The notes under the pieces: generated by a model
Told to the model about the DNA's origin: nothing
The model's input: the letters and a program-made list of their open reading frames with translations, nothing else
The model's database searches: none
NCBI GenBank assembly: GCA_001443365.1
Contig: LDXL01000006.1
Span: forward strand, 87,387-119,386
Reading direction: 5' to 3'
Origin: Thaumarchaeota archaeon CSP1-1
GTDB lineage: Archaea > Thermoproteota > Nitrososphaeria > Nitrososphaerales > Nitrosopumilaceae
Length of the DNA: 32,000 nt
Translations under genes and position numbers: made by a program
Shown here: piece by piece, positions 8,192 to 30,599 of the stretch
How positions within the stretch are numbered: the first letter of the stretch is position 1
How the letters are laid out: each line of letters opens with the position of its first letter

Positions 8192-8242
8192 ATTTTATCT
8201 TAAACCTAAAGATACAAAAAGTTCCTATATTGTAAAAACATT

Positions 8243-8336
8243 GGACCGGTTGTCTAGTGGCTAGGATGACGCCCTCACACGGCGTAAAGATGTAAAAATC
8301 TCGCTAAGGTCATGGGTTCAAATCCCATCCGGTCCA
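8243..8336 (+). tRNA. tRNA-Val (anticodon CAC) with a ~21-nt intron in the variable-loop region
   Basis: Hand-folded cloverleaf. Acceptor GGACCGG/CCGGTCC. D arm GTCT-AGTGGCTA-GGAT. Anticodon arm ACGCC-CTCACAC-GGCGT. T arm ATGGG-TTCAAAT-CCCAT, discriminator A. There are 26 nt between the anticodon stem and the T stem instead of 5, so about 21 extra nt (roughly 8287-8307). Confidence 0.85.
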
Positions 8337-8387
8337 TTCAATTTTCAAAATGAAAGGTATACAAGATGTTAGTTTTAAAATGATTTT

Positions 8388-19494: not shown

Positions 19495-19508
19495 GAAAAA
19501 TTTTTCCT
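19493..19508. terminator. Perfect 16-bp palindrome AGGAAAAATTTTTCCT spanning both stop codons of convergent genes, possible bidirectional terminator
   Basis: Self-complementary when checked base by base. It presents a T5 run on either strand and includes the TAG of the plus-strand gene (19492-19494) and the TAG of the minus-strand gene (19507-19509). Confidence 0.4.
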
Positions 19509-20664
19509 AATCTAACTTTAGTATGCCCATTCTAACTAAGTGCTCAACGCCATCAAAGAATACTTTGTCACTGATTCTTTTTTCGGACCATAATAGGGCT
19601 CTTGTCTTAAACCAGTTTGGCATTTTTTCTATGTTGGATTCGCTTACTGGATCTTTTAAATTAAATGGAATATAACTTAACAGAGATTGAAATGATTTTT
19701 CTTTATCAGCAATTGGATTAAGATATTGATTCCAATCAATCTCAGTTGGTTTTGAAAGTTCTCGGATCATAAACCCATTTGGAAATTCCAGAGAGAGTTT
19801 AATTTCCTCAGAAGTAGAATTTGTTACAGGATTGACTAAATGCTTGAGAGTATTTTCATAAGCTTTATCATTAATTGTATTTGTTATCCACATTTTTGTC
19901 AAATCCCGTTGAAGATTAATTAATTCAGAATTAGAATTAGTTATTGCGTAATTGATCAAAGTATTACCAATAGCTGGTTCATAAGGTGCTATCATCACAT
20001 AGTTCTTAGTTGAGGAATCAGCTCGAATTATTATTTTAAATTCATTACATTTATCATAATCAAAATTTGTTCCTATACAATTATCATATTGATCCTGTTT
20101 TTCATGAATTTTCATTTTAATATCGGATTTAGAGAAGCCTTTGTAAGATAATACAAAGTGAGAAAGTTCGTGAGATAATATCCAAGAAGGTAATGTCGTT
20201 TCGTAACTAGAAGAGAAATCAGAACAATCACACATCATTAATAGATGGTTAATTGTTCTATCGTTACCTGAATGCACATAAATTCCATCAAGGTTATTAG
20301 GATGTAAAGTTGATTTTCCTAAAGCTTGATCAAAAATTAGTATCAACAAGTTTACATTCTCAGATTTTTGGAAATCCTTGAATTGTGATTCTGAAATACA
20401 ATTCACTGAATAATTATTATTCTCTAATTGGTAAAGCTCAAAGTATTTGGATGTAAGGCTAGCGTAAACTTTATCCATATTATCTTTAGGACCACAAGTA
20501 TCTTTTTTGATATAGAGTAATTGCCATTCTACTGAAGAATCTTCTGCTGCATATGATTTGGTTAAGGTAGGTCCAAGAATTAGGCCCAAAGTAATCATTA
20601 TACTAAAGATTACGTAAATTTTTTCTCCAGGAACAATATTCTTTATTTTATTGACTTTAATCAT
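19507..20664 (-). CDS. Secreted or membrane-anchored protein with an HExxH motif (putative zinc metallopeptidase)
   Basis: N-terminal TM/signal segment (IYVIFSIMITLGLILGPTL). HELSH in LPSWILSHELSHFVL (DNA 20158-20172). The start overlaps the upstream gene by 8 nt. The fold family was not recognised. Confidence 0.55.
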   Translation of the reverse strand: MIKVNKIKNIVPGEKIYVIFSIMITLGLILGPTLTKSYAAEDSSVEWQLLYIKKDTCGPKDNMDKVYASLTSKYFELYQLENNNYSVNCISESQFKDFQKSENVNLLILIFDQALGKSTLHPNNLDGIYVHSGNDRTINHLLMMCDCSDFSSSYETTLPSWILSHELSHFVLSYKGFSKSDIKMKIHEKQDQYDNCIGTNFDYDKCNEFKIIIRADSSTKNYVMIAPYEPAIGNTLINYAITNSNSELINLQRDLTKMWITNTINDKAYENTLKHLVNPVTNSTSEEIKLSLEFPNGFMIRELSKPTEIDWNQYLNPIADKEKSFQSLLSYIPFNLKDPVSESNIEKMPNWFKTRALLWSEKRISDKVFFDGVEHLVRMGILKLD

Positions 20665-21598
20665 CTGAAAACACCAACACTAATTCTGGAATGTGTGACT
20701 GAGCCTCTCTTGATGCAATGTTTATTTGACCTTCTGAATTTTCGTCACTTTTCATTATGATCCATCCGAAATTTTCTTCTGAAGAAAGATAATCTAGAAT
20801 ATCGTCAGTAACATCAAACTTTACCCAGTAACCTTCTACTTGATTTGAAATCCATATTGAATCTGTTGGGTTTTGGTCAAATTTTCCTCCGTTCCACTGA
20901 TTTCTACAGTCATCCGCCTCGGTAGGACAACTCCAAGTTACCCCATCGCTAGGATTCAATAGATTGCTAACTGGAGTACTTATTCCATTACCTTCCTGCC
21001 AGTCAGTTTCAAAGCTGTGTATATTGATAAGCTGCCCGTCTCCCCAATTTTGATTATTACTTTCTATATACAGTTTGAGAGTTGCAGATTCTAGAGTTTT
21101 GCCAGTAGCTACGTTTTGAATATCATCTTGATTGAAAGCTATCAGAGCCCTGTTGTTAGTTGGTCCAGTACCCATAATTCGTAGAACTTGGTTTGAGCCT
21201 TCGTTACTGTTTTGAACACCTTCTCTAATGAAACTATCTTTTTCAGCAAACAATGTAACTTTATTTCCAGATACCTCGGGCTCTTTTACTGGGAGATTCT
21301 TTACAAGTTTAAGATTGGTGAATTCCTCATTTTTTAAAACTTTTTGTGTTTTAGATAACTCCTCTTCCAGTTGAACAAACATGTGATTAGATGTTTCTTT
21401 GGCATCTTTGAAATTACACAAACCATTCTCACAAATGTTAGTTGGAATTGGGGTTACTTCTGTATATGAAAAAATTTCTTGTATTTCTTCATCTAGTATG
21501 AAAAATGATATCGCAGAAAATGTAATGCCCGCAATTACAAGTAAACTTAAAAGAGTTCTTCCGAGAAGCTCGTCTTTAATAATATTATTCGTTTTCAT
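20657..21598 (-). CDS. Secreted protein with a DNRLRE/CBM96-like beta-sandwich domain
   Basis: N-terminal TM anchor. The C-terminal ~200 aa follow the DNRLRE-domain pattern as I recall it: KDSFIREG..N.NEGSNQVLRI......NRALIAFNQ...ATLKLY...W.EG..GVTW....FDVTD...INIASREA...PELVLVF. The start ATG overlaps the S8 gene stop (ATGA). Confidence 0.55.
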   Translation of the reverse strand: MKTNNIIKDELLGRTLLSLLVIAGITFSAISFFILDEEIQEIFSYTEVTPIPTNICENGLCNFKDAKETSNHMFVQLEEELSKTQKVLKNEEFTNLKLVKNLPVKEPEVSGNKVTLFAEKDSFIREGVQNSNEGSNQVLRIMGTGPTNNRALIAFNQDDIQNVATGKTLESATLKLYIESNNQNWGDGQLINIHSFETDWQEGNGISTPVSNLLNPSDGVTWSCPTEADDCRNQWNGGKFDQNPTDSIWISNQVEGYWVKFDVTDDILDYLSSEENFGWIIMKSDENSEGQINIASREAQSHIPELVLVFSDD

Positions 21599-23748
21599 TT
21601 CATAGCCTCCGAGTCATCTATTAGGAAAACTGCACTTGCAGTTCCATAACCCATTGCATAATCATATTCATTTTGTAATGAAAACAGACCAGGTTCTGTA
21701 TTCTGTTGAATTTTAGTCAATAACTGTTCTGGAGACATATTTGGATTATTCTCAAGAATTAATGCAGCCAAGCCAGCAACATAAGGAGTAGTAGCTGATG
21801 TTCCATAGAATGGCTTGCCGTCTAGAGCTAAGGTTGTTACACCATCAGGCCCTACGACATGAGGAGCTAATTTGCCATTATTTGTGGGGCCTTGTGAGCT
21901 ATATGGTTCTAGTATTCCATCTAGGTGGTTTACCGCTCCTACTACTATTGCGCCATTTGCATCTGCTGGAACTGACACACTACTTTGGGTAACAGGATAT
22001 TCAAGTTCATCATTAACAGTAAAAATTTCCAAAGTTGCATGAGGTCTATTGCTAGGTGATATCATATCCCCAGAATACAAGACTCCAAGAGAATAGATAC
22101 CTTCAGTATCTGGAAGATGATAAATATATTCAAAGGGATTGTCTGAACTCTTTTCTTGCTTGTTTGCAGAGAAATCGACTATTTGTCCTAGCGGATTAAC
22201 AAGCACAAGCTCTAAATCAGCAACATCATCTAGACCCACATCCCACATCATATGAGCGATAATTGGCTTTTCTTCTGCGATTCGATCTTCTGTTACTGTA
22301 ATCGACAAGCCTTCATCGGTATTTGAAAAATCATGCCAATTATTGAGGCTGGAATCCACAAAATTTCCTTCCCAATGCTTATTGCCAAAGTTTCCTGCTG
22401 GTACAACAAAAACAATGCCATTTTCAACGGCTTCCTCAATCTTCTTTGTGACATGACTTGTACCATCAGTTGGGAAGTTAGGCCAACCTGCAGACATTGC
22501 TATAATATCTACATTTTTTGATATGGCTTCATCCACAGCTGCTGCAAATTCAATGTCTGATTCCATGGAATACAAAAATAGTTCAACATCTGGAGCAACG
22601 TCAGCTATAATTTCTGCAACTGCGGTTCCATGCAAGGCTTCATCTCCATTTCCTTGTATTGGCAGATATCCTATCCCTTGTCTGAACGATTTGACTTCAA
22701 CGATATTATCTGAAATTTTTTGATTATTTGTAAATGACAAGTCCAACACAGCTACTTTAATCCCTTTACCAGTAATCCCTGCATATTGTGCCAAATCAGC
22801 ATTCATGAAATACACTCCTTCTGACAATGATTCCTCAAATTGTACTGCTGGGAATGGGGGCCTAATGTTTTCAATACCTTGAATTGACCTGAGTTTTGGA
22901 AGGTCACTTAGCTTAATTGTTAGCTGTACCTGTTTGTCATTTTTTGCGTTAATATTACCTAGTGAAGTTAGTTTGTCTAAAACTGCAGCGTCTGTATTTG
23001 TTAATGTTACTACAACTTTTGTTTTCCCATCTTTAAAGTCAAGTCCTAATTTTTTGGCATCTCTTTTAGGATCTTCACTTTTTAAAAGAGCCGAAATTTT
23101 TGAATCAATTTTATGTTTTGAAAGCTCCTCATGAGAAGCCATCTCTTGTTTAATTTTTAATTTAGTTTCTTTTAGTTCTTGTTTGAGTGTTTTTTTGTAC
23201 TCTTTATCATAATCTAGGTTTTCATTTAATTTCTTGATAACATCTTTGATATCAGAAACGAGAGATTTGAGTTTTTGTTTATCTTCCTCATTTAAGATCT
23301 TTTTTAAATCATTGATCTCTTTTTTAATTTCTTTAAGAGCTTGCAGCTTTTCTTTTAATTCATTTTTATTTCGAGTTTCTTCTCTCTGTTTTTTGATTTT
23401 CTCTATTATAGCTCTTTTCTCTTCATCATCATCGTCATTCGATTGACAGGCACCTTTTGTATCACCATGAGCCAAGTGTGCTTCGGTAGCATTTACTGAT
23501 ACCAAAATTTGCTGGAAATTGTTGGGGTTTCCTGGAGGAATGTGACATATTGTAATTTTTTTATCATCATCTTTCTCATCATCTTTCTCATCATCTTTCT
23601 CATCATCTTTCTCATCATCTTTCTCATCATCTTTCTCATCATCTGCAACAGCAAGTGCCGGGTTAAAATTTGCAAATGTGCCCCAGCTTAATAATAACAC
23701 TGATAGAATCACTACCAATGCTCTAGAATTAGCATACGCTGAAACCAT
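21595..23748 (-). CDS. Secreted S8 (subtilisin-family) serine protease with acidic repeat, Cys/His module and coiled-coil N-terminal extension
   Basis: Catalytic triad contexts are VAVLDLSF (Asp), HGTAVAEIIA (His) and GTSATTPYVAGLAAL (Ser), with the oxyanion Asn in VVPAGNFG. A ~150-aa insert lies between Asn and Ser. The N-terminus carries a signal peptide, then (DDEK)x6, ICHIPPGNP...HLAHGD..GAC, a K/E-rich coiled coil and an I9-like propeptide. Confidence 0.9.
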   Translation of the reverse strand: MVSAYANSRALVVILSVLLLSWGTFANFNPALAVADDEKDDEKDDEKDDEKDDEKDDEKDDDKKITICHIPPGNPNNFQQILVSVNATEAHLAHGDTKGACQSNDDDDEEKRAIIEKIKKQREETRNKNELKEKLQALKEIKKEINDLKKILNEEDKQKLKSLVSDIKDVIKKLNENLDYDKEYKKTLKQELKETKLKIKQEMASHEELSKHKIDSKISALLKSEDPKRDAKKLGLDFKDGKTKVVVTLTNTDAAVLDKLTSLGNINAKNDKQVQLTIKLSDLPKLRSIQGIENIRPPFPAVQFEESLSEGVYFMNADLAQYAGITGKGIKVAVLDLSFTNNQKISDNIVEVKSFRQGIGYLPIQGNGDEALHGTAVAEIIADVAPDVELFLYSMESDIEFAAAVDEAISKNVDIIAMSAGWPNFPTDGTSHVTKKIEEAVENGIVFVVPAGNFGNKHWEGNFVDSSLNNWHDFSNTDEGLSITVTEDRIAEEKPIIAHMMWDVGLDDVADLELVLVNPLGQIVDFSANKQEKSSDNPFEYIYHLPDTEGIYSLGVLYSGDMISPSNRPHATLEIFTVNDELEYPVTQSSVSVPADANGAIVVGAVNHLDGILEPYSSQGPTNNGKLAPHVVGPDGVTTLALDGKPFYGTSATTPYVAGLAALILENNPNMSPEQLLTKIQQNTEPGLFSLQNEYDYAMGYGTASAVFLIDDSEAMK
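23566..23637 (-). repeat. Six identical tandem 12-nt units (plus strand ATCATCTTTCTC) encoding (DDEK)6
   Basis: Exact repeats counted at 23566, 23578, 23590, 23602, 23614 and 23626, with partial units on both sides. Confidence 0.95.
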
Positions 23749-23794: not shown

Positions 23795-23814
23795 GTTTGT
23801 AATTGATTACAAAC
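23795..23814. promoter_or_regulatory. Candidate operator: perfect 9+9 bp inverted repeat GTTTGTAAT-TG-ATTACAAAC
   Basis: Located in the 170-bp divergent region between the protease operon start (23748) and the histidine kinase start (23919). Arms verified as exact reverse complements. Confidence 0.45.
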
Positions 23815-23918
23815 TTTTTCTTATATCCCAAAAATACGTTCAAAATATCAGCAATGAAACTAGTATATGGCCTATCAGAGGCAGCTGGAAAAAAATTGTA
23901 CCATGATGGAGGGATTTC

Positions 23919-25448
23919 ATGAGGCTTAAAACAAAGTTTTCTTTAGAAGTACTTCTTTTAATTTCTCTAATTGGGATGGTATCTATTATTGCAGTTTTAA
24001 ATACAAAACAAGTTCAGGATAGTTTTCTTGATTTGAGTATACAGACATTACCAACTTGGGATGCATTAAAGGACATGAGATTAGCCAACTCTCTGATTTT
24101 ATCATCTACTTTGGAAGTATTGATTTTACAAGATGCGATAAACAATCAAGAAGATGAATTTGGAGTATCTGATTATGAAGAACAAATAGAAAATGAAATT
24201 TTTGAAATAGAAACAGCAAAATCATTATTCAGTGAATCTTTTACTCGATATTCTATCCTTATGGAAGAAAATTTCCCAGAATCCAATATTTATGTAGACG
24301 ATATTTCCAAAAATTGGAATGATTTGGTAATAACGTCTAACAAAATGATTAGATTTAATATTAATGGAAATAATGCAAGGGAAGTTTTAGAATTAAAAAA
24401 TGATTTTGAAAATAGTGTGCAATTACTTAATCAAAATATATTTTCTGCAAATAGTTTTATTGAGCCTCAAGTGAAAAGCAGACAAGCAGTTGTGGAATCA
24501 CTTGTTGATAACACCACTACACAGATCTTAATTGTATTAAATATTTTCATTGGAGCATCATTGGCCTTCAAATTTTTTATCACAAAATCAATTTCACGGC
24601 CACTAATCAAACTAAGAAAAACAGCTCATAAAATTGCAGAAGGAGAATTTGTTAAAACAGAAATGAAAGGGGATGATGAAATTTCTGATCTTGGTAAAGA
24701 TATCGATATGATGTCAACTGAACTTCAAAAACTAAACAGGGCACTAGTAACATCTGAAAGACTGTCATCTATTGGTAGTTTATCGAGTCGTTTGGCACAT
24801 GATCTCAGAAATCCACTATCTGTCATCAAAAACTCTATGGAAATATTGAAATTCAGATTAAATGATAACATGGATGAAAACATTAACCATCAAATTGCAA
24901 TGGTTGGAAGAGCAGTTTCTCGCATGTCACACCAAATTGAGGATGTACTTGATTTTGTGAATATAGCCTCATTGAAATTAGAAAATAGTTCACTCATTAC
25001 AGTAATAGAATCTGCTATTCTTAGTACCGACATACCAAAATCTGTTAAGATAAATTTGCCAAAAAATTCTGTTACGATAAGGTGTGATCCATATAGAATG
25101 GAAGTAGTTATCAGTAATTTATTGAAAAATGCCTCACAAGCAATGGAAGGTAAAGGAGAGATTTCAATCAGAGTTTTAGACCAAAAAGAGGATGTTTTGA
25201 TAGAGATTGAAGATCAGGGTCAAGGGATTCCTCAAGAAAACATGGATAAAATATTTGAGCCCTTATTTACTACAAAACAGTCAGGGACGGGTTTGGGATT
25301 AGCAAGCTGTATCAGCATTGTAGAAAAACATGGAGGCAGTATTTCTGTGAAAAATAATCCTACAGTCTTCACTGTACAATTGCCTAAGGTCCCTAAAAAT
25401 GTAAAACTTGAAGAAAAACAAATAGAAAAGCAAATTCCTAACGAATAA
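23919..25448 (+). CDS. Sensor histidine kinase (two TM helices, extracytoplasmic sensor, HAMP, HisKA, HATPase_c)
   Basis: TM1 (residues ~10-27), a ~165-aa outside domain and TM2 (ILIVLNIFIGASLAFKFFI). HAMP (SRPLIKLRKTAHKIAEGEF). H-box SRLAHDLRNPL. N-box LLKNASQA. G-boxes DQGQGIP and GTGLGL. Confidence 0.9.
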   Translation: MRLKTKFSLEVLLLISLIGMVSIIAVLNTKQVQDSFLDLSIQTLPTWDALKDMRLANSLILSSTLEVLILQDAINNQEDEFGVSDYEEQIENEIFEIETAKSLFSESFTRYSILMEENFPESNIYVDDISKNWNDLVITSNKMIRFNINGNNAREVLELKNDFENSVQLLNQNIFSANSFIEPQVKSRQAVVESLVDNTTTQILIVLNIFIGASLAFKFFITKSISRPLIKLRKTAHKIAEGEFVKTEMKGDDEISDLGKDIDMMSTELQKLNRALVTSERLSSIGSLSSRLAHDLRNPLSVIKNSMEILKFRLNDNMDENINHQIAMVGRAVSRMSHQIEDVLDFVNIASLKLENSSLITVIESAILSTDIPKSVKINLPKNSVTIRCDPYRMEVVISNLLKNASQAMEGKGEISIRVLDQKEDVLIEIEDQGQGIPQENMDKIFEPLFTTKQSGTGLGLASCISIVEKHGGSISVKNNPTVFTVQLPKVPKNVKLEEKQIEKQIPNE

Positions 25449-25519
25449 AATTCTTCAAAAAGTTCGTTCGTTCCACCCACACACTGGCAGATATGTCACA
25501 AATTTGTCATTAATTTGAT

Positions 25520-26734
25520 ATGGAGAACCAAGAGTTGATCTTGCCTGAAGAAGAAGAGGTCATGCCACTTCTAGCGGATTATGGATTAACAGAAGAAGAG
25601 GCACGAGTGTATGTTGGGGTATTAAGGATTGGCACAGGCAAAGTAAGTGAGATTAGCCATTTTACAAATACTGATAGAGTTAAGGGATACAAAATACTTG
25701 AAAATTTGAGAAGTGAAGGATATGTAACTTCAACTCTTTCATCACCAATTTTATTTTCTGCAAATGATCCTAAAACGACATTTGATACTATCTTAACGAA
25801 GAAAAAATCTGGAATTCAAAGATTAGAAAAAAATCAAGCTCGTTTAATTGAAAATCTAGAAAAGCTAAAAGGACATAGTGTAGTGAGTAACCTTCCTAAA
25901 CTCTCAGTAATTTCAGGAAGAGATAATATCTACAATGAAATAAAAAAAATTATTGATGAGACAAAAGATGAGATGTATTTAGTTACATCAACTTCTGATC
26001 TCATTAGAATGTATTATACAGATATTCCTGCTGCCATAAAAAAAGCACTCAAACGTAAAGTAGAAATTAAATTAATGACGGAGTTTGAAGTTTCTGATAA
26101 AACCGATTGTGTTAAAAATCTAGGATTAAATTATTTTAAAGTTGCAAAATTACCTTCCCAAGGCAGAATAGTTTGCAATTCCTCTCAGATTATCATGTCT
26201 GGCTATACCTCAAAGACCTCAAGAATTCATGCAAGCGATGATTCTGCATTAGTAACTAATTCAGATGAAATTACTAGCAACATGCAAAGCTTATGCAAGT
26301 TTATGTGGAAAATGGGAGGAGAAGTAAAAATTGATAAAAAAGGCACTGTTGAAGGAGAATCTCCTAGAATTAAAACGGGCGTACAAAAAAATGCTACAGC
26401 ATTAGTTGTCGATGATGATCCAGATACAGTAGAGATGTTTTCAGATTATTTAGAAAATAAAGGAGTTAATGTAATAGGTAAGGCAAAGGATGGAAAAGAA
26501 GGTTTTGAACTATACAAGAAATTAAAACCAGATGTAATATTTTTGGATGTAATTATGCCAAATTATGATGGATTTTATACGTTAAAGAAGATTAGAGAAA
26601 TAGATGCTGATGCAAAGATTATCATGGTGACTGCTGATTTTTCTCCAACAACTAAGAAAAAGCTAAAGGAATTAAAAGCAACTGATATTATTTACAAGCC
26701 CTACGATGGAAGGGCAATTGATAGAGTAATTTAG
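25520..26734 (+). CDS. Hybrid regulator: N-terminal TrmB-type winged HTH, TrmB-like middle domain and C-terminal receiver (REC) domain
   Basis: HTH: GLTEEEARVYVGVLRIGTGKVSEISHFTNTDRVKGYKILENLRSEGYV. Middle: VISGRDNIYNEIKKIIDETKDEMYLVTS...RKVEIKLMTE. REC: VVDDDPD, phospho-acceptor context VIFLDVIMP, MVTAD and IYKP. Confidence 0.85.
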   Translation: MENQELILPEEEEVMPLLADYGLTEEEARVYVGVLRIGTGKVSEISHFTNTDRVKGYKILENLRSEGYVTSTLSSPILFSANDPKTTFDTILTKKKSGIQRLEKNQARLIENLEKLKGHSVVSNLPKLSVISGRDNIYNEIKKIIDETKDEMYLVTSTSDLIRMYYTDIPAAIKKALKRKVEIKLMTEFEVSDKTDCVKNLGLNYFKVAKLPSQGRIVCNSSQIIMSGYTSKTSRIHASDDSALVTNSDEITSNMQSLCKFMWKMGGEVKIDKKGTVEGESPRIKTGVQKNATALVVDDDPDTVEMFSDYLENKGVNVIGKAKDGKEGFELYKKLKPDVIFLDVIMPNYDGFYTLKKIREIDADAKIIMVTADFSPTTKKKLKELKATDIIYKPYDGRAIDRVI

Positions 26735-26777: not shown

Positions 26778-27416
26778 TTAGGATTTAGAGCCTAATGAGG
26801 ATACTATAACATCAATAGCATCAGATAATTTTTTGATATCATGCTCTCTGCCTAGGCGATGTATTTCTTCTTTGATAATTTTTAGGGCGGTAGTATTATT
26901 TACTATATCAAAAACATTCGTTCCGCGATAGGGAGTTTCTTTGAGATTCTGACGCACTTCTTCTATTTGGAATTCTTGTTGTTCTAGCTCTTTTTCTGCT
27001 AATGTGCACTCGTACTCTAACTTTTGAAGCTTTGATTTTGTATTTCGCTTTCCTAGTAATAATTGATCAAGGATAGTTGTAACTGATTTGATATCCATTG
27101 TATTAAGAGAATTTTTATCAAGATTAATTTTTTCTAATTTTTGAGATTGTAACATTGCAATTTCTTGGTCAAATCTTTTATGTAATTCCTGTATATGATT
27201 AATTTGTTCTTGATGTTTATCGATTTTCATATTAACATATTTTATGTATTGACCTGTGTTTCCAGCTGCATCTAATGCCCAACGAATTGCATTCTTTGCA
27301 GCCAAATAACCTGATTTTGTTTCTTTTTCTCTTTGTTGTAATCGATCAGTAAACGTTACCGATTCTGCATCATTTAAATGAAATCCTAATGTTACAGATC
27401 TGTCTCCAACATCCAT
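26778..27416 (-). CDS. Coiled-coil hypothetical protein (212 aa as listed, possibly longer at the N-terminus)
   Basis: Long heptad-like K/E/Q-rich stretches. The frame stays open 37 codons upstream of the ATG without any ATG/GTG/TTG (see findings). Confidence 0.55.
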   Translation of the reverse strand: MDVGDRSVTLGFHLNDAESVTFTDRLQQREKETKSGYLAAKNAIRWALDAAGNTGQYIKYVNMKIDKHQEQINHIQELHKRFDQEIAMLQSQKLEKINLDKNSLNTMDIKSVTTILDQLLLGKRNTKSKLQKLEYECTLAEKELEQQEFQIEEVRQNLKETPYRGTNVFDIVNNTTALKIIKEEIHRLGREHDIKKLSDAIDVIVSSLGSKS

Positions 27417-27552
27417 TACGTCTTTTACTTCAACAGTTTTACCAATCTCTGCAATATAGCTAGATTCGTCTTTAGAAATTATTCTGTCTTCTTTACGATT
27501 AATATATTTACGAACCAGAAGATTACCTAGGCATTAGAACTTAAATCAAAAT

Positions 27553-27572
27553 GTATGTAAATTATTACAAAC
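27553..27572. promoter_or_regulatory. Second, imperfect copy of the inverted-repeat motif (GTATGTAAA-TT-ATTACAAAC)
   Basis: 17 of 20 positions are identical to 23795-23814, counted by hand. Lies in the divergent gap between genes 26778-27416 (minus) and 27651-27998 (plus), overlapping a minus-strand TATA-like TAATAATTTA. Confidence 0.35.
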
Positions 27573-27650: not shown

Positions 27651-27998
27651 ATGAGAATCAAGAGAAATTTGTTCATGACAGAAGTTACCGAATATCGAAT
27701 ACAGCAAATTGTTGATAATGGTCAGATAGTACAAATGACTCTAGCAGAAGATGTCCTCACAGAACCAGTCTCTCAAAAACAAATGATAATGGATTCTGTG
27801 GCAAAGAAATTGGATCCTGAAATAAAAGAACAGGTAACGCCCTTATTAGAGGCAATACTTCAAGCCCAACCTACAATCCAGATAAAGAGTTACCAACATA
27901 CTTCAATCACCATTACGATGCCAAAAAGCAGATACGAACGAATGGGTAGGCCACAAGTTGGCGAAAAACTGGAAATCAATATTAGAAAAATTTCCTAA
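27651..27998 (+). CDS. Hypothetical protein (115 aa)
   Basis: Intact ORF. An alternative start is the ATG at 27675 (MTEVTEY...). No motif recognised. Confidence 0.5.
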
Positions 27999-30025: not shown

Positions 30026-30161
30026 AAAATTCGTTATAGTGAATATCTATTTGTAGTTACTTGCCAGAGGTTTAGTGAGCAATACAAAAATAATCAGAGA
30101 TTCTGATGGAGGTTCAAAATTTTCATTAAATGTGTGTTGTAAATAACAAACAACAAAAGAA

Positions 30162-30599
30162 ATGTTACGAAGTATATACTATAGTGAGGTCAAAAAATTG
30201 CCTATTAACATATTGATAGCAGAAGATGAAGAAGACATTGCTGAGCAATACCGTATGGGATTTGAAGATAGAGGCCATAAGGTGAAAGTTACCCACAATG
30301 GCGTTGAATGTATCAATGAATATCGTAGAGCTCGTCAATCACTTGGTGAAAAAGAACCTCTAATTTATGATGTAATAATAATTGATCATAACATGCCCTT
30401 AAAGGATGGAGCAATGTTGGCTGAAGAAATTCGAGAAATAAATCCCGAACAGATTATAGTCTTTGCAACTGCTTATGGAAACCAGCTGATAATGGGTTTA
30501 GAAAAATTTGAAGATGTGGATATTGTTACTAAACCTCTATCCATAACAAATTTAATACAAATGGTAGAAGATAGGCACTACAAGACAGTTGAAGCTTAA
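30162..30599 (+). CDS. Stand-alone response regulator receiver protein (CheY-like)
   Basis: ILIAEDEED acidic pocket, phospho-acceptor context VIIIDHNMPLKDG, FATAYG and VTKP. No output domain. Confidence 0.85.
   Translation: MLRSIYYSEVKKLPINILIAEDEEDIAEQYRMGFEDRGHKVKVTHNGVECINEYRRARQSLGEKEPLIYDVIIIDHNMPLKDGAMLAEEIREINPEQIIVFATAYGNQLIMGLEKFEDVDIVTKPLSITNLIQMVEDRHYKTVEA

What the first reader, a model, noticed from the sequence alone, without database searches (positions are those of the whole stretch)
25520..26734. Response regulator with reversed architecture: TrmB-type DNA-binding and effector-like domains followed by a C-terminal receiver
Classical response regulators place REC at the N-terminus, before the output domain. 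Here the order is a TrmB-like winged HTH, a helical linker, a domain resembling the TrmB C-terminal (PLD-like) effector region, and then a complete REC. The REC carries all the phosphorylation residues (DDD pocket, LDVIMP Asp, Thr in MVTAD, Lys in YKP). The gene starts 72 nt after a canonical HAMP histidine kinase. TrmB proteins are normally sugar-responsive one-component regulators. Fusion to REC would convert one into the output of a phosphorelay, possibly integrating a ligand signal with phosphorylation. I do not recall this exact architecture being characterised experimentally.
Basis: partly seen in the sequence, partly recalled or inferred. Interest (0 to 1): 0.65.

Follow-up and report, generated by a model that had tools for sequence, protein, structure and literature searches.

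The report
Archaeal TrmB-type response regulator with operator
This gene from an ammonia-oxidising archaeon encodes a DNA-binding regulator of the TrmB family with a phosphorylation receiver fused to its tail; the type is catalogued but unstudied, and it probably switches neighbouring secreted-protease genes on or off through a conserved 20-base palindrome.

Summary
ORF 25520-26734 (+, 404 aa) has a TrmB winged helix, a long helix, one alpha/beta TrmB effector-type subdomain, a disordered linker and a complete receiver (D298/D299, D343, T371, K393). It lies 71 nt after a 4HB-HAMP-HisKA-HATPase kinase.

The interpretation needs three corrections.
- The N-terminal 275 residues are TrmBL2-like. 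The sugar-binding second subdomain of TrmB is absent, so sugar sensing has no support.
- HTH first and REC last is the usual order in characterised archaeal DNA-binding regulators (FilR1, LtrR).
- Galperin's 2018 census supplement already lists "TrmB-REC" for two Nitrosopumilaceae. No paper found describes its function.

The family is narrow: Nitrosopumilaceae only, with one other full-length representative among 1.84 billion.

New here:
- A palindrome, GTTTGTAAT-N2/3-ATTACAAAC, sits at promoters of the kinase/regulator genes and of a conserved secreted S8 protease-CBM96-orf385 module. It follows these genes through rearrangements in three lineages. The window has three sites.
- The closest stand-alone TrmB-like paralogues lie in kinase | REC - TrmB-like - REC | metallopeptidase clusters, with related palindromes. 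The fused protein therefore links the two modules functionally.

Best reading: a phosphorylation-controlled, operator-specific transcription factor. Interest is moderate.

The parts
25520..26734 (+). TrmB-REC response regulator gene (404 aa)
   Evidence: ORF. Pfam TrmB + Regulator_TrmB (partial) + Response_reg. AF2/Foldseek match TrmBL2 plus CheY-like REC.
25571..25774 (+). TrmB-type winged helix-turn-helix (residues 18-85); recognition-helix Tyr57
   Evidence: PF01978, E 2.6e-12. Y57 aligns with TrmBL2 Y50 and is invariant in 37 fused and stand-alone homologues.
25769..25867 (+). Long helix (residues 84-116), the position of the TrmB coiled-coil dimerisation helix
   Evidence: AF2 secondary structure H84-116. 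The TrmB coiled-coil is described in PMC4158304. A dimerisation role here is inferred.
25901..26335 (+). Alpha/beta domain (residues 128-272), equal to the first (PLD-like) subdomain of the TrmB effector-binding domain; the sugar-binding second subdomain is absent
   Evidence: PF11495 profile positions 2-138 of 233 only. Foldseek alignment spans all of TrmBL2, ~260 aa. An invariant polar cluster (R134, N136, Y138, D160, Y165, T167, R216, S227, T246, S248, W263) is shared with stand-alone paralogues.
26336..26395 (+). Flexible linker (residues 273-292)
   Evidence: pLDDT <50 for residues 274-287. Variable in length and sequence in the alignment.
26396..26731 (+). Receiver (REC) domain, residues 293-404; D298/D299 acidic pocket, D343 phospho-acceptor, T371, K393
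   Evidence: PF00072, E 1.6e-24. Residue positions. Foldseek TM 0.8-0.9 to CheY/Spo0A.
23919..25448 (+). Putative cognate sensor histidine kinase (TM - ~170 aa extracytoplasmic 4-helix-bundle-like sensor - TM - HAMP - HisKA(H294) - HATPase_c)
   Evidence: Pfam and motif positions. Adjacency to the regulator is conserved in L001-L005, L021/22 and L025.
25449..25519 (+). 71-nt kinase-regulator spacer, unusually conserved (mean column identity 89%)
   Evidence: Alignment A3. Function unknown. An internal promoter or a degenerate operator is possible.
23795..23814 (.). Operator-like perfect palindrome GTTTGTAAT-TG-ATTACAAAC in the divergent promoter between the S8 operon and the kinase-regulator genes; it ends 6 nt before a TTATAT box (23821-23826)
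   Evidence: Arms invariant and spacer variable in five species (A2). Chance 0.01 per window. 26 of 68 exact metagenome matches lie at this same promoter, next to kinases down to 41% identity.
27553..27572 (.). Second operator-like site GTATGTAAATTATTACAAAC between the divergent genes 26778-27416 (-) and 27651-27998 (+)
   Evidence: Conserved footprint in L001-L005 while the flanks diverge (A4).
30132..30151 (.). Third, weaker operator-like site GTGTGTTGTAAATAACAAAC, 10 nt upstream of the stand-alone REC gene
   Evidence: Core-motif scan. Conserved footprint in L001-L005 (A6).
21595..23748 (-). Predicted target: secreted S8 subtilase-like protein with an N-terminal acidic DEKDDEK repeat
   Evidence: Pfam Peptidase_S8. 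Homologues lie next to the regulator in L021 (810 aa) and L025 (590 aa), each with a palindrome upstream.
20657..21598 (-). Predicted target: membrane-anchored CBM96-domain protein (overlaps the S8 gene by 4 nt, so the same operon)
   Evidence: Pfam CBM96. The homologue in L021 has its own palindrome 36 nt upstream.
19507..20664 (-). Predicted target: secreted or anchored 385-aa protein of unknown family with a HELSH (HExxH) motif, last gene of the operon
   Evidence: Homologues sit directly downstream of the regulator in L021 and L025, and the L025 copy has a palindrome upstream.
30162..30599 (+). Stand-alone REC protein (145 aa), a possible further member of the system
   Evidence: Pfam. Operator-like site upstream. 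31-36% identical to the third gene (REC ~180 aa) of the split loci.

Best explanation
The gene encodes a functional two-component response regulator whose output is a TrmBL2-type DNA-binding module. The proposed pathway has these steps.
- The adjacent membrane kinase senses an extracytoplasmic signal through its four-helix-bundle domain. (Inferred.)
- The kinase autophosphorylates on His294 and transfers the phosphoryl group to Asp343 of the C-terminal receiver. (Inferred.)
- The receiver is tethered by a ~20-residue flexible linker. Phosphorylation changes the oligomeric state or DNA affinity of the wHTH/coiled-coil/alpha-beta module. (Inferred.)
- The module binds as a dimer to the palindrome GTTTGTAAT-N2-ATTACAAAC. 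(Inferred; the palindrome itself and its conservation are shown.)
- Predicted targets are the divergent promoter shared by the secreted S8 protease-CBM96-orf385 operon and the kinase-regulator operon (autoregulation), plus two weaker sites further downstream.
- The sign of regulation (activation or repression) is undetermined.

The protein is the fused counterpart of a paralogous thaumarchaeal system in which a ~130-aa REC and a ~270-aa TrmB-like protein are separate, adjacent genes.
For: Domains and catalytic residues are intact. The fold matches TrmBL2 and CheY. The DNA-recognition Tyr is conserved.

The kinase is adjacent in five close species, in L025, and in N. zosterae with inverted orientation. 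The regulator is more conserved than the kinase (87-98% against 66-94%).

The palindrome is perfect, with invariant arms and a variable spacer across species. Chance gives about 0.01-0.03 such sites per 32 kb.

In three lineages with different gene orders the palindrome follows the same five homologous genes: S8-like, CBM96, orf385-like, kinase and regulator. In metagenomes, 26 of 68 exact matches are this promoter.

Three sites flank the regulator in the window and each is a conserved footprint.

The split sister loci (kinase | REC - TrmB-like - REC | Peptidase_M10) carry related GTTTGT-N9-ACAAAC palindromes at the TCS promoter and upstream of the peptidase. The only DNA-binding domain common to fused and split loci is the TrmB wHTH.
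Against: No binding or phosphotransfer was tested. The link between palindrome and protein is by co-occurrence only.

Nitrosarchaeum (L023) has the regulator without an adjacent kinase and only a weak site.

The structural relative TrmBL2 binds DNA without sequence specificity, according to the PDB titles and PMC4158304.

The inter-domain arrangement in the model is undefined (pTM 0.48), so the coupling mechanism is a guess.

The position of the sites relative to real transcription starts is unknown.
Confidence: 0.7

Rival explanations
1. Dual-input regulator. The TrmB effector-type domain binds a small ligand and the receiver adds a phosphorylation input, so the protein integrates two signals.
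For: The alpha/beta domain keeps an invariant polar cluster (R134, N136, Y138, D160, Y165, T167, R216, S227, T246, S248, W263) in both fused and stand-alone paralogues. This could line a pocket.
Against: The subdomain that holds six of the seven sugar contacts in TrmB is absent. TrmBL2/TrmBL3, which have the same truncated architecture, are described as lacking an effector domain. The conserved residues could equally serve folding, oligomerisation or contact with a REC partner.
Confidence: 0.12
2. The palindrome is the site of another transcription factor. The TrmB-REC protein acts elsewhere or has different specificity.
For: The assignment rests on co-localisation only. Only 13-32 kb around each locus was examined, so the genome-wide distribution of the motif is unknown. 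42 of 68 exact metagenome matches are in unrelated contigs.
Against: The motif follows the regulator's neighbours through rearrangements. Related palindromes occur in split loci whose only shared DNA-binding protein is the TrmB-like paralogue. No other predicted DNA-binding gene is common to these loci. The unrelated matches have GC of 15-67% and fit chance in a very large collection.
Confidence: 0.12
3. A TrmBL2-like architectural (chromatin) protein that binds DNA non-specifically, with phosphorylation tuning its polymerisation on DNA.
For: The best structural match is TrmBL2, over its full length. TrmBL2 coats DNA and represses globally.
Against: Identity to TrmBL2 is only about 14%. The family is patchy in the Galperin census (2 of 16 thaumarchaeal genomes), which is unlike a core chromatin protein. 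It is paired with a dedicated kinase and a locus-specific conserved palindrome.
Confidence: 0.04
4. The receiver is not phosphorylated by the neighbouring kinase. It could be an orphan or cross-talk receiver, a phosphate sink, or a phosphorylation-independent dimerisation domain.
For: Nitrosarchaeum carries the regulator without an adjacent kinase. Thaumarchaea encode many kinases and stand-alone receivers (PMC5847659). Further REC genes lie in the same loci.
Against: All phospho-acceptor residues are invariant in the 23 REC-bearing sequences of alignment A1. The kinase is adjacent in most lineages. Kinase core, REC and TrmB-like module are all homologous between fused and split loci (47-50%, 48-58% and 39-43% identity).
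Confidence: 0.1

Closest known systems
'TrmB-REC' response regulators listed in the Galperin et al. 2018 archaeal TCS census (Nlim_0171 / EGG42941; NADRN5_1556 / AJW71237)
   Same: Same three-domain architecture and same family. The Nitrosarchaeum limnium orthologue (P0271, WP_048097004, from strain BG20) is full-length and about 51% identical to the window protein. All members are Nitrosopumilaceae.
   Different: The census entry is only a label in a supplementary table. No function, operator, regulon or partner kinase is described. The window protein belongs to a different, uncultured genus-level clade. Identity of P0271 with Nlim_0171 itself (strain SFB1) was not verified.
TrmBL2 (PF0496 / TK0471; PDB 5bpd, 5bpi, 5bqt, 5box)
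   Same: wHTH, coiled-coil helix and a single alpha/beta domain in ~265 residues, with no sugar-binding subdomain. It is the best Foldseek match over its whole length, has a weak sequence match (E 0.012), and shares the recognition Tyr.
   Different: TrmBL2 has no receiver, is an abundant non-specific chromatin protein of Thermococcales, and is about 14% identical. The window protein has a C-terminal REC, a dedicated kinase and an apparent specific palindromic operator.
TrmB / TrmBL1 (Tgr) / VNG1451C sugar-responsive one-component regulators
   Same: Same Pfam wHTH (PF01978), first effector subdomain (PF11495 N-terminal half), dimeric helix, and palindromic operators as a family trait (PMC4158304).
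   Different: They carry the second EBD subdomain with the sugar contacts and have no REC. In the window protein that subdomain is missing and a receiver follows the first subdomain instead.
FilR1 of Methanosaeta (Methanothrix) harundinacea (FilI/FilR system)
   Same: An archaeal DNA-binding response regulator with N-terminal wHTH, a middle domain and a C-terminal REC, partnered with a histidine kinase (PMC5847659). Stand-alone HTH+DUF1724 proteins (Msr regulators) also exist, which parallels the stand-alone TrmB-like paralogues here.
   Different: The middle domain is DUF1724 (PF08350), which is not detected in the window protein even at E<=1. The wHTH family and phylum differ, and FilR1 regulates methanogenesis.
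LtrR of Methanococcoides burtonii (LtrK/LtrR)
   Same: HTH at the N-terminus and REC at the C-terminus. Phosphotransfer from the adjacent membrane kinase was shown in vitro (PMC4823666).
   Different: It is ~20 kDa, with HTH followed directly by REC and no coiled-coil or alpha/beta middle module.

Membership tests
Two-component response regulators (phospho-accepting REC) | Response_reg domain above the curated threshold | tested here: met
   PF00072, 86.7 bits against a cut-off of 30.2, residues 295-400. Foldseek TM 0.8-0.9 to CheY/Spo0A.
Two-component response regulators (phospho-accepting REC) | Acidic pocket Asp-Asp, phospho-acceptor Asp, conserved Thr/Ser and Lys | tested here: met
   D298/D299(/D300), D343, T371 and K393. 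These are conserved in all 23 REC-bearing sequences of A1.
Two-component response regulators (phospho-accepting REC) | Cognate histidine kinase encoded nearby | tested here: met
   A HAMP-HisKA-HATPase_c kinase lies 71 nt upstream. The adjacency is conserved in L001-L005, L021/22, L025 and many metagenome contigs. It is absent in L023.
Two-component response regulators (phospho-accepting REC) | Phosphotransfer from kinase to Asp, with a change in output activity | not testable with these tools
   Needs biochemistry.
TrmB family of transcription regulators | N-terminal TrmB-type wHTH (PF01978) with the recognition-helix Tyr (Y50 of Pfu TrmB) | tested here: met
   46.8 bits against a cut-off of 25.6. 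Y57 aligns with TrmBL2 Y50 and is invariant.
TrmB family of transcription regulators | Coiled-coil helix after the wHTH, used for dimerisation | tested here: inconclusive
   A long helix at 84-116 is predicted at the right place. Dimerisation itself was not modelled.
TrmB family of transcription regulators | First EBD subdomain (eight-stranded sheet flanked by helices) | tested here: met
   PF11495 profile 2-138, 20.1 bits (just below the 22.2 cut-off) in the window protein and 25.0 bits in orthologue P0121. Structural match to TrmBL2 and TrmB.
Sugar-sensing TrmB/TrmBL1 subgroup | Second EBD subdomain (beta-barrel) with sugar contacts N305, G320, M321, V324, I325, E326 | tested here: not met
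   The Pfam match stops at profile position 138 of 233. After residue 272 come a linker and the REC. The feature is defined in PMC4158304.
TrmBL2-type (EBD-truncated) subgroup | ~265-aa module of wHTH + coiled-coil + single alpha/beta domain | tested here: met
   Foldseek aligns ~270 columns covering all of 5bpd (260 aa), E 8e-15. Stand-alone paralogues of 270-283 aa align end to end with residues 8-274.
TrmBL2-type (EBD-truncated) subgroup | Non-specific, chromatin-like DNA binding | not testable with these tools
   Indirect evidence points the other way: a conserved, locus-specific palindrome.
FilR1-type regulators (wHTH-DUF1724-REC) | DUF1724 / FilR1 middle domain (PF08350) | tested here: not met
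   No PF08350 hit at E<=1. Only the domain order is shared.
LtrR-type HTH-REC regulators | HTH directly followed by REC, ~20 kDa | tested here: not met
   About 190 residues (helix plus alpha/beta domain plus linker) separate the wHTH from the REC. LtrR size is from PMC4823666.
'TrmB-REC' class of the Galperin 2018 census | TrmB wHTH at the N-terminus and REC at the C-terminus in one thaumarchaeal protein | tested here: met
   A full-length orthologue in N. limnium has the same Pfam architecture.

The most novel reading that the evidence does not exclude
The fused protein is a Rosetta stone for thaumarchaeal signalling. In the sister system a ~130-aa stand-alone REC is 48-58% identical to the fused REC. 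It is encoded directly upstream of a ~270-aa TrmBL2-like protein that is 39-43% identical to the fused N-terminus. A homologous kinase and a secreted peptidase gene lie nearby, with related palindromes. This would mean that some of the many REC-only regulators of Thaumarchaeota (77% of their response regulators in the 2018 census) control transcription by non-covalent partnership with TrmBL2-like DNA-binding proteins. That is a route from archaeal two-component systems to the basal transcription machinery that has not been demonstrated. The domain order in the fusion (TrmB then REC) is the opposite of the gene order in the split loci (REC then TrmB-like). The fusion therefore did not arise by simple read-through of that REC-to-TrmB-like junction.
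Probability: 0.3. Interest if true: 0.7.

Novelty: new member of a known kind. Interest (0 to 1): 0.48.

Why it matters
DNA-binding response regulators are very rare in archaea. The 2018 census table counts one HTH-containing regulator among 224 in Thaumarchaeota. How archaeal two-component systems reach transcription is largely open.

This locus offers a compact, testable case in ammonia-oxidising archaea, which are globally important nitrifiers. It has:
- a kinase with an extracytoplasmic sensor;
- a regulator with a recognisable DNA-binding module;
- a sharply defined candidate operator;
- a small candidate regulon of secreted or surface proteins (S8 protease, CBM96 protein, HExxH protein).

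The paralogous split system, with REC and TrmB-like as separate genes, gives a direct handle on how stand-alone receivers might control transcription factors. A cultured relative, Nitrosopumilus zosterae, carries the system, so experiments are feasible.

Tried and rejected
- NCBIfam gave only partial REC-based hits far below every family cut-off, so no named equivalog applies.
- A PDB sequence search gave only marginal hits (TrmBL2/TrmB, E~0.01). Structure comparison was needed.
- In the representative search, hits with several matched stretches looked like possible TrmB-REC relatives but were multi-REC proteins.
- The genome-contig scan with a single protein found only close full-length relatives (five species) plus REC-only hits. 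It under-samples the family.
- The sigma-70 promoter and intrinsic-terminator scan is not applicable to an archaeon and found fewer sites than shuffles.
- I tried to place the operators relative to TATA boxes and start codons to decide between activation and repression. Start codons of several neighbours are uncertain, so I left the sign open.
- The 10-nt palindrome ACAAATTTGT in the kinase-regulator spacer is not conserved in L002, L003 or L005, so I dropped it.
- A site at 20140-20157 (2 mismatches) lies inside a coding region. It failed the stricter scans and I ignored it.
- The HExxH motif of orf385 as evidence for a protease is only partly conserved, being lost in N. zosterae.
- Literature searches for 'TrmB-REC' and for TrmB + Nitrosopumilus + response regulator found nothing beyond the census.
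Full report
**1. Observation**

The ORF at 25520-26734 (+) encodes 404 residues. Pfam finds three domains:
- a TrmB winged helix (residues 18-85, E 2.6e-12, above the curated cut-off);
- Regulator_TrmB (residues 128-272, E 4e-4, 20.1 bits against a cut-off of 22.2, covering only profile positions 2-138 of 233);
- Response_reg (residues 295-400, E 1.6e-24).

The receiver has the full phospho-acceptor set: D298/D299/D300, D343, T371 and K393.

The preceding ORF (23919-25448) is a membrane kinase with a weak 4HB_MCP match, HAMP, HisKA (H294) and HATPase_c. The gap between the genes is 71 nt.

An AlphaFold2 model built on 37 homologues (pLDDT 81, pTM 0.48) gives these segments:
- wHTH, residues 9-81;
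- one long helix, 84-116;
- an alpha/beta domain, 128-270;
- a disordered linker, 274-287;
- a CheY-like domain, 293-404.

Foldseek against the PDB ranks TrmBL2 first (E 8e-15, about 270 aligned columns, which is the whole protein). TrmB follows (E 2e-10), then receivers with TM 0.8-0.9.

**2. What the N-terminal module is**

The TrmB family review (PMC4158304) states that the effector-binding domain has two subdomains. Six of the seven sugar contacts (N305, G320, M321, V324, I325, E326) lie in the second one. TrmBL2 and TrmBL3 (264 aa) lack that part.

The window protein matches only the first subdomain and then runs into a linker and the REC. The module is therefore TrmBL2-like, not a sugar sensor.

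The DNA-recognition Tyr is present (Y57, aligned with TrmBL2 Y50). It is invariant in all homologues.

The alpha/beta domain keeps an invariant polar cluster that is shared with stand-alone paralogues. Its role is unknown.

**3. Distribution and prior knowledge**

Close homologues number in the hundreds of 90% clusters. All have TrmB+REC, and the named ones are 'response regulator [Nitrosopumilaceae / Nitrosopumilus / Nitrosarchaeum]'.

Among 1.84 billion representatives at 50% identity, only one other protein matches end to end: P0121, at 51% identity. A 41%-identical fragment (P0124) also spans the middle domain and the REC. All other hits match either residues ~10-270 (stand-alone ~270-aa TrmB-like proteins) or the REC alone.

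P0121 is 99% identical to a Nitrosarchaeum limnium BG20 protein.

Galperin et al. 2018 (PMC5847659) list the class 'TrmB-REC' in a supplementary table for N. limnia SFB1 (Nlim_0171) and N. adriaticus (NADRN5_1556). The main text does not discuss it. Table 1 of that paper counts one HTH-containing regulator among 224 thaumarchaeal regulators. No paper in the library has 'TrmB-REC' in its text.

The same census and Najnin et al. 2016 show that N-terminal HTH with C-terminal REC is the normal order in characterised archaeal DNA-binding regulators. FilR1 is wHTH-DUF1724-REC and LtrR is HTH-REC.

So the architecture is catalogued, narrow in range and uncharacterised. Its 'reversed' order is not exceptional for archaea.

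**4. Genomic context**

In five Nitrosopumilaceae species the order is the same as in the window:
- orf385, CBM96 and S8 protease on the minus strand;
- divergently, kinase and regulator;
- then a coiled-coil gene and a small gene, divergent from each other;
- a DsbH-like gene;
- a stand-alone REC;
- an ADH.

The regulator is 87-98% identical across these species and the kinase 66-94%.

Three more distant loci were examined:
- Nitrosopumilus zosterae (regulator ~50% identical): CBM96, an 810-aa S8-like gene and the kinase on one strand, with the regulator and a 377-aa gene divergent.
- L025: a 590-aa gene divergent from kinase, regulator, a 389-aa gene and a REC.
- A Nitrosarchaeum contig: no adjacent kinase.

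BLAST shows that the S8-like, CBM96, orf385-like, kinase and regulator genes are homologous across these loci (Pfam). They form a five-gene module whose order is shuffled.

**5. A conserved operator**

The S8-kinase intergenic region contains a perfect palindrome, GTTTGTAAT-TG-ATTACAAAC (23795-23814). It ends 6 nt before a TTATAT box.

In five species the arms are invariant while the two spacer bases vary. Chance expectation is 0.01-0.03 sites per 32 kb.

The same motif occurs elsewhere, with a 3-nt spacer in the more distant loci:

| Locus | Position of the site |
|---|---|
| N. zosterae | Upstream of CBM96 |
| N. zosterae | Upstream of the 810-aa gene |
| N. zosterae | Upstream of the regulator (weaker site, 1-nt spacer) |
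| L025 | Twice between the 590-aa gene and the kinase |
| L025 | Upstream of the 389-aa gene |

An exact-pattern scan of the metagenome collection returned 68 contigs. Of these, 26 are this same promoter, and some lie next to kinases only 41-68% identical to the window kinase. The rest have unrelated composition (GC 15-67%) and no homologous genes, which fits chance in so large a collection.

The window has two further sites with a conserved footprint:
- 27553-27572, between the divergent genes 26778-27416 and 27651-27998;
- 30132-30151, just upstream of the stand-alone REC gene.

No site occurs elsewhere in the window at this stringency.

**6. A split sister system**

The nearest stand-alone paralogues are 39-43% identical to residues 8-274. 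Six contexts were examined, and all are low-GC contigs. In four of them the arrangement is kinase (-) | REC ~130 aa, then TrmB-like ~270 aa, then REC ~180 aa | Peptidase_M10 (-). The other two have TrmB-like followed by REC.

Similarities to the window system:
- the upstream REC is 48-58% identical to the fused receiver;
- the kinase core is 47-50% identical to residues 280-490 of the window kinase;
- the downstream REC resembles the window's stand-alone REC (31-36%).

These loci carry GTTTGT-N9-ACAAAC palindromes at the kinase/REC promoter and upstream of the peptidase gene. One of them, GTTTGTAATTATATTACAACC, differs from the window consensus in one arm position.

The only DNA-binding domain common to fused and split loci is the TrmB wHTH. 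This is the best available argument that it reads this palindrome.

The gene order in the split loci (REC before TrmB-like) is the opposite of the domain order in the fusion. Simple read-through of that REC-to-TrmB-like junction therefore does not explain the fusion, and the direction (fusion or fission) is open.

**7. Mechanism proposed**

Shown:
- intact domains and catalytic residues;
- the fold;
- conserved kinase adjacency;
- the conserved palindromes and their association with a homologous gene set;
- homology of all three signalling parts between fused and split systems.

Inferred:
- the kinase phosphorylates D343;
- the regulator binds the palindrome as a dimer through the wHTH and coiled-coil;
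- phosphorylation of the tethered receiver alters oligomerisation or affinity;
- the targets are the S8-CBM96-orf385 operon, its own operon (autoregulation), and the genes next to sites 2 and 3.

Whether the regulator activates or represses cannot be decided without transcription start sites.

**8. Rivals**

- A dual ligand-plus-phosphate sensor is weakened by the missing sugar subdomain. It is not excluded, because of the invariant polar cluster.
- Another factor may bind the palindrome. This is possible because the assignment is correlative.
- A TrmBL2-like non-specific chromatin role is unlikely, given the patchy distribution, the dedicated kinase and the specific motif.
The Nitrosarchaeum locus lacks a kinase.

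**9. Verdict**

The finding is real and correctly described at the domain level. It is a member of a catalogued but unstudied, lineage-restricted class of archaeal response regulators, and is best described as a TrmBL2-type regulator with a C-terminal receiver.

It is not categorically new. The candidate operator, the small secreted-protein regulon and the split paralogous system were derived here, and no paper found in this library describes them. Together they make it a good experimental entry point into archaeal two-component transcription control.

Noticed in passing
window 21595-23748 (-): The S8 subtilase-like protein has an N-terminal run of DEKDDEK acidic repeats after its signal peptide. 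The orthologous ORF varies widely in length between close species (about 717 to 1162 aa), mostly upstream of the conserved C-terminal part.
   Followed up: partly
window 19507-20664 (-): This 385-aa protein has no Pfam family. It has an N-terminal hydrophobic anchor and a HELSH (HExxH) motif with a weak Peptidase_M91 hit. The motif is conserved in L025 but replaced by EKLSQ in N. zosterae. It travels with the regulator in all three lineages.
   Followed up: partly
window 25449-25519: The 71-nt kinase-regulator spacer has a mean column identity of 89%. That is more conserved than the kinase protein in the more distant species L002 and L005. It contains AAAAAGTTCGTTCGTTC and CCCACACAC blocks, partly kept even in L025. 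It may be an internal promoter or a degenerate operator. It is unexplained.
   Followed up: partly
window 27417-27530: About 110 nt upstream of the annotated ATG of ORF 26778-27416 (-) is strongly conserved. It is open in the same frame by my hand translation, but has no ATG/GTG/TTG start. The L002 orthologue is 241 aa rather than 212 aa. The true start may be non-canonical or mis-set, which would bring operator site 2 to about 25-45 nt from the start.
   Followed up: partly
P0139 (representative search hit, 445 aa): The same TrmB-like module (wHTH plus middle domain) is fused at its C-terminus to a MEDS domain instead of a REC. A stand-alone MEDS gene also lies next to the kinase in split loci L096 and L098. 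The module seems to accept different C-terminal signalling domains.
   Followed up: no
L094, L096, L097, L098 (split loci): A Peptidase_M10 gene lies convergently downstream of the REC - TrmB-like - REC operon in four loci, each with a palindrome at or just upstream of its annotated start. This parallels the S8/HExxH genes of the fused system. Both systems appear to control secreted proteases.
   Followed up: partly
window 27651-27998 (+): This small 115-aa protein has a weak Arcadin_1 hit (E 0.002, below the cut-off). It is conserved next to the regulator in the window clade and lies downstream of operator site 2.
   Followed up: no
window 8242-8337 (+): ARAGORN calls a tRNA-Val(CAC) of 96 nt, which is long enough to suggest an archaeal intron.
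   Followed up: no
L023 5800-5885: In the Nitrosarchaeum locus, a stretch that looks by eye like a tRNA gene on the minus strand lies just upstream of the regulator, where other lineages have the kinase. ARAGORN was not run on it.
   Followed up: no
L039 699-718 and 2374-2393: One metagenome contig has two exact copies of the palindrome flanking an S8-like gene (60% identity).
   Followed up: no
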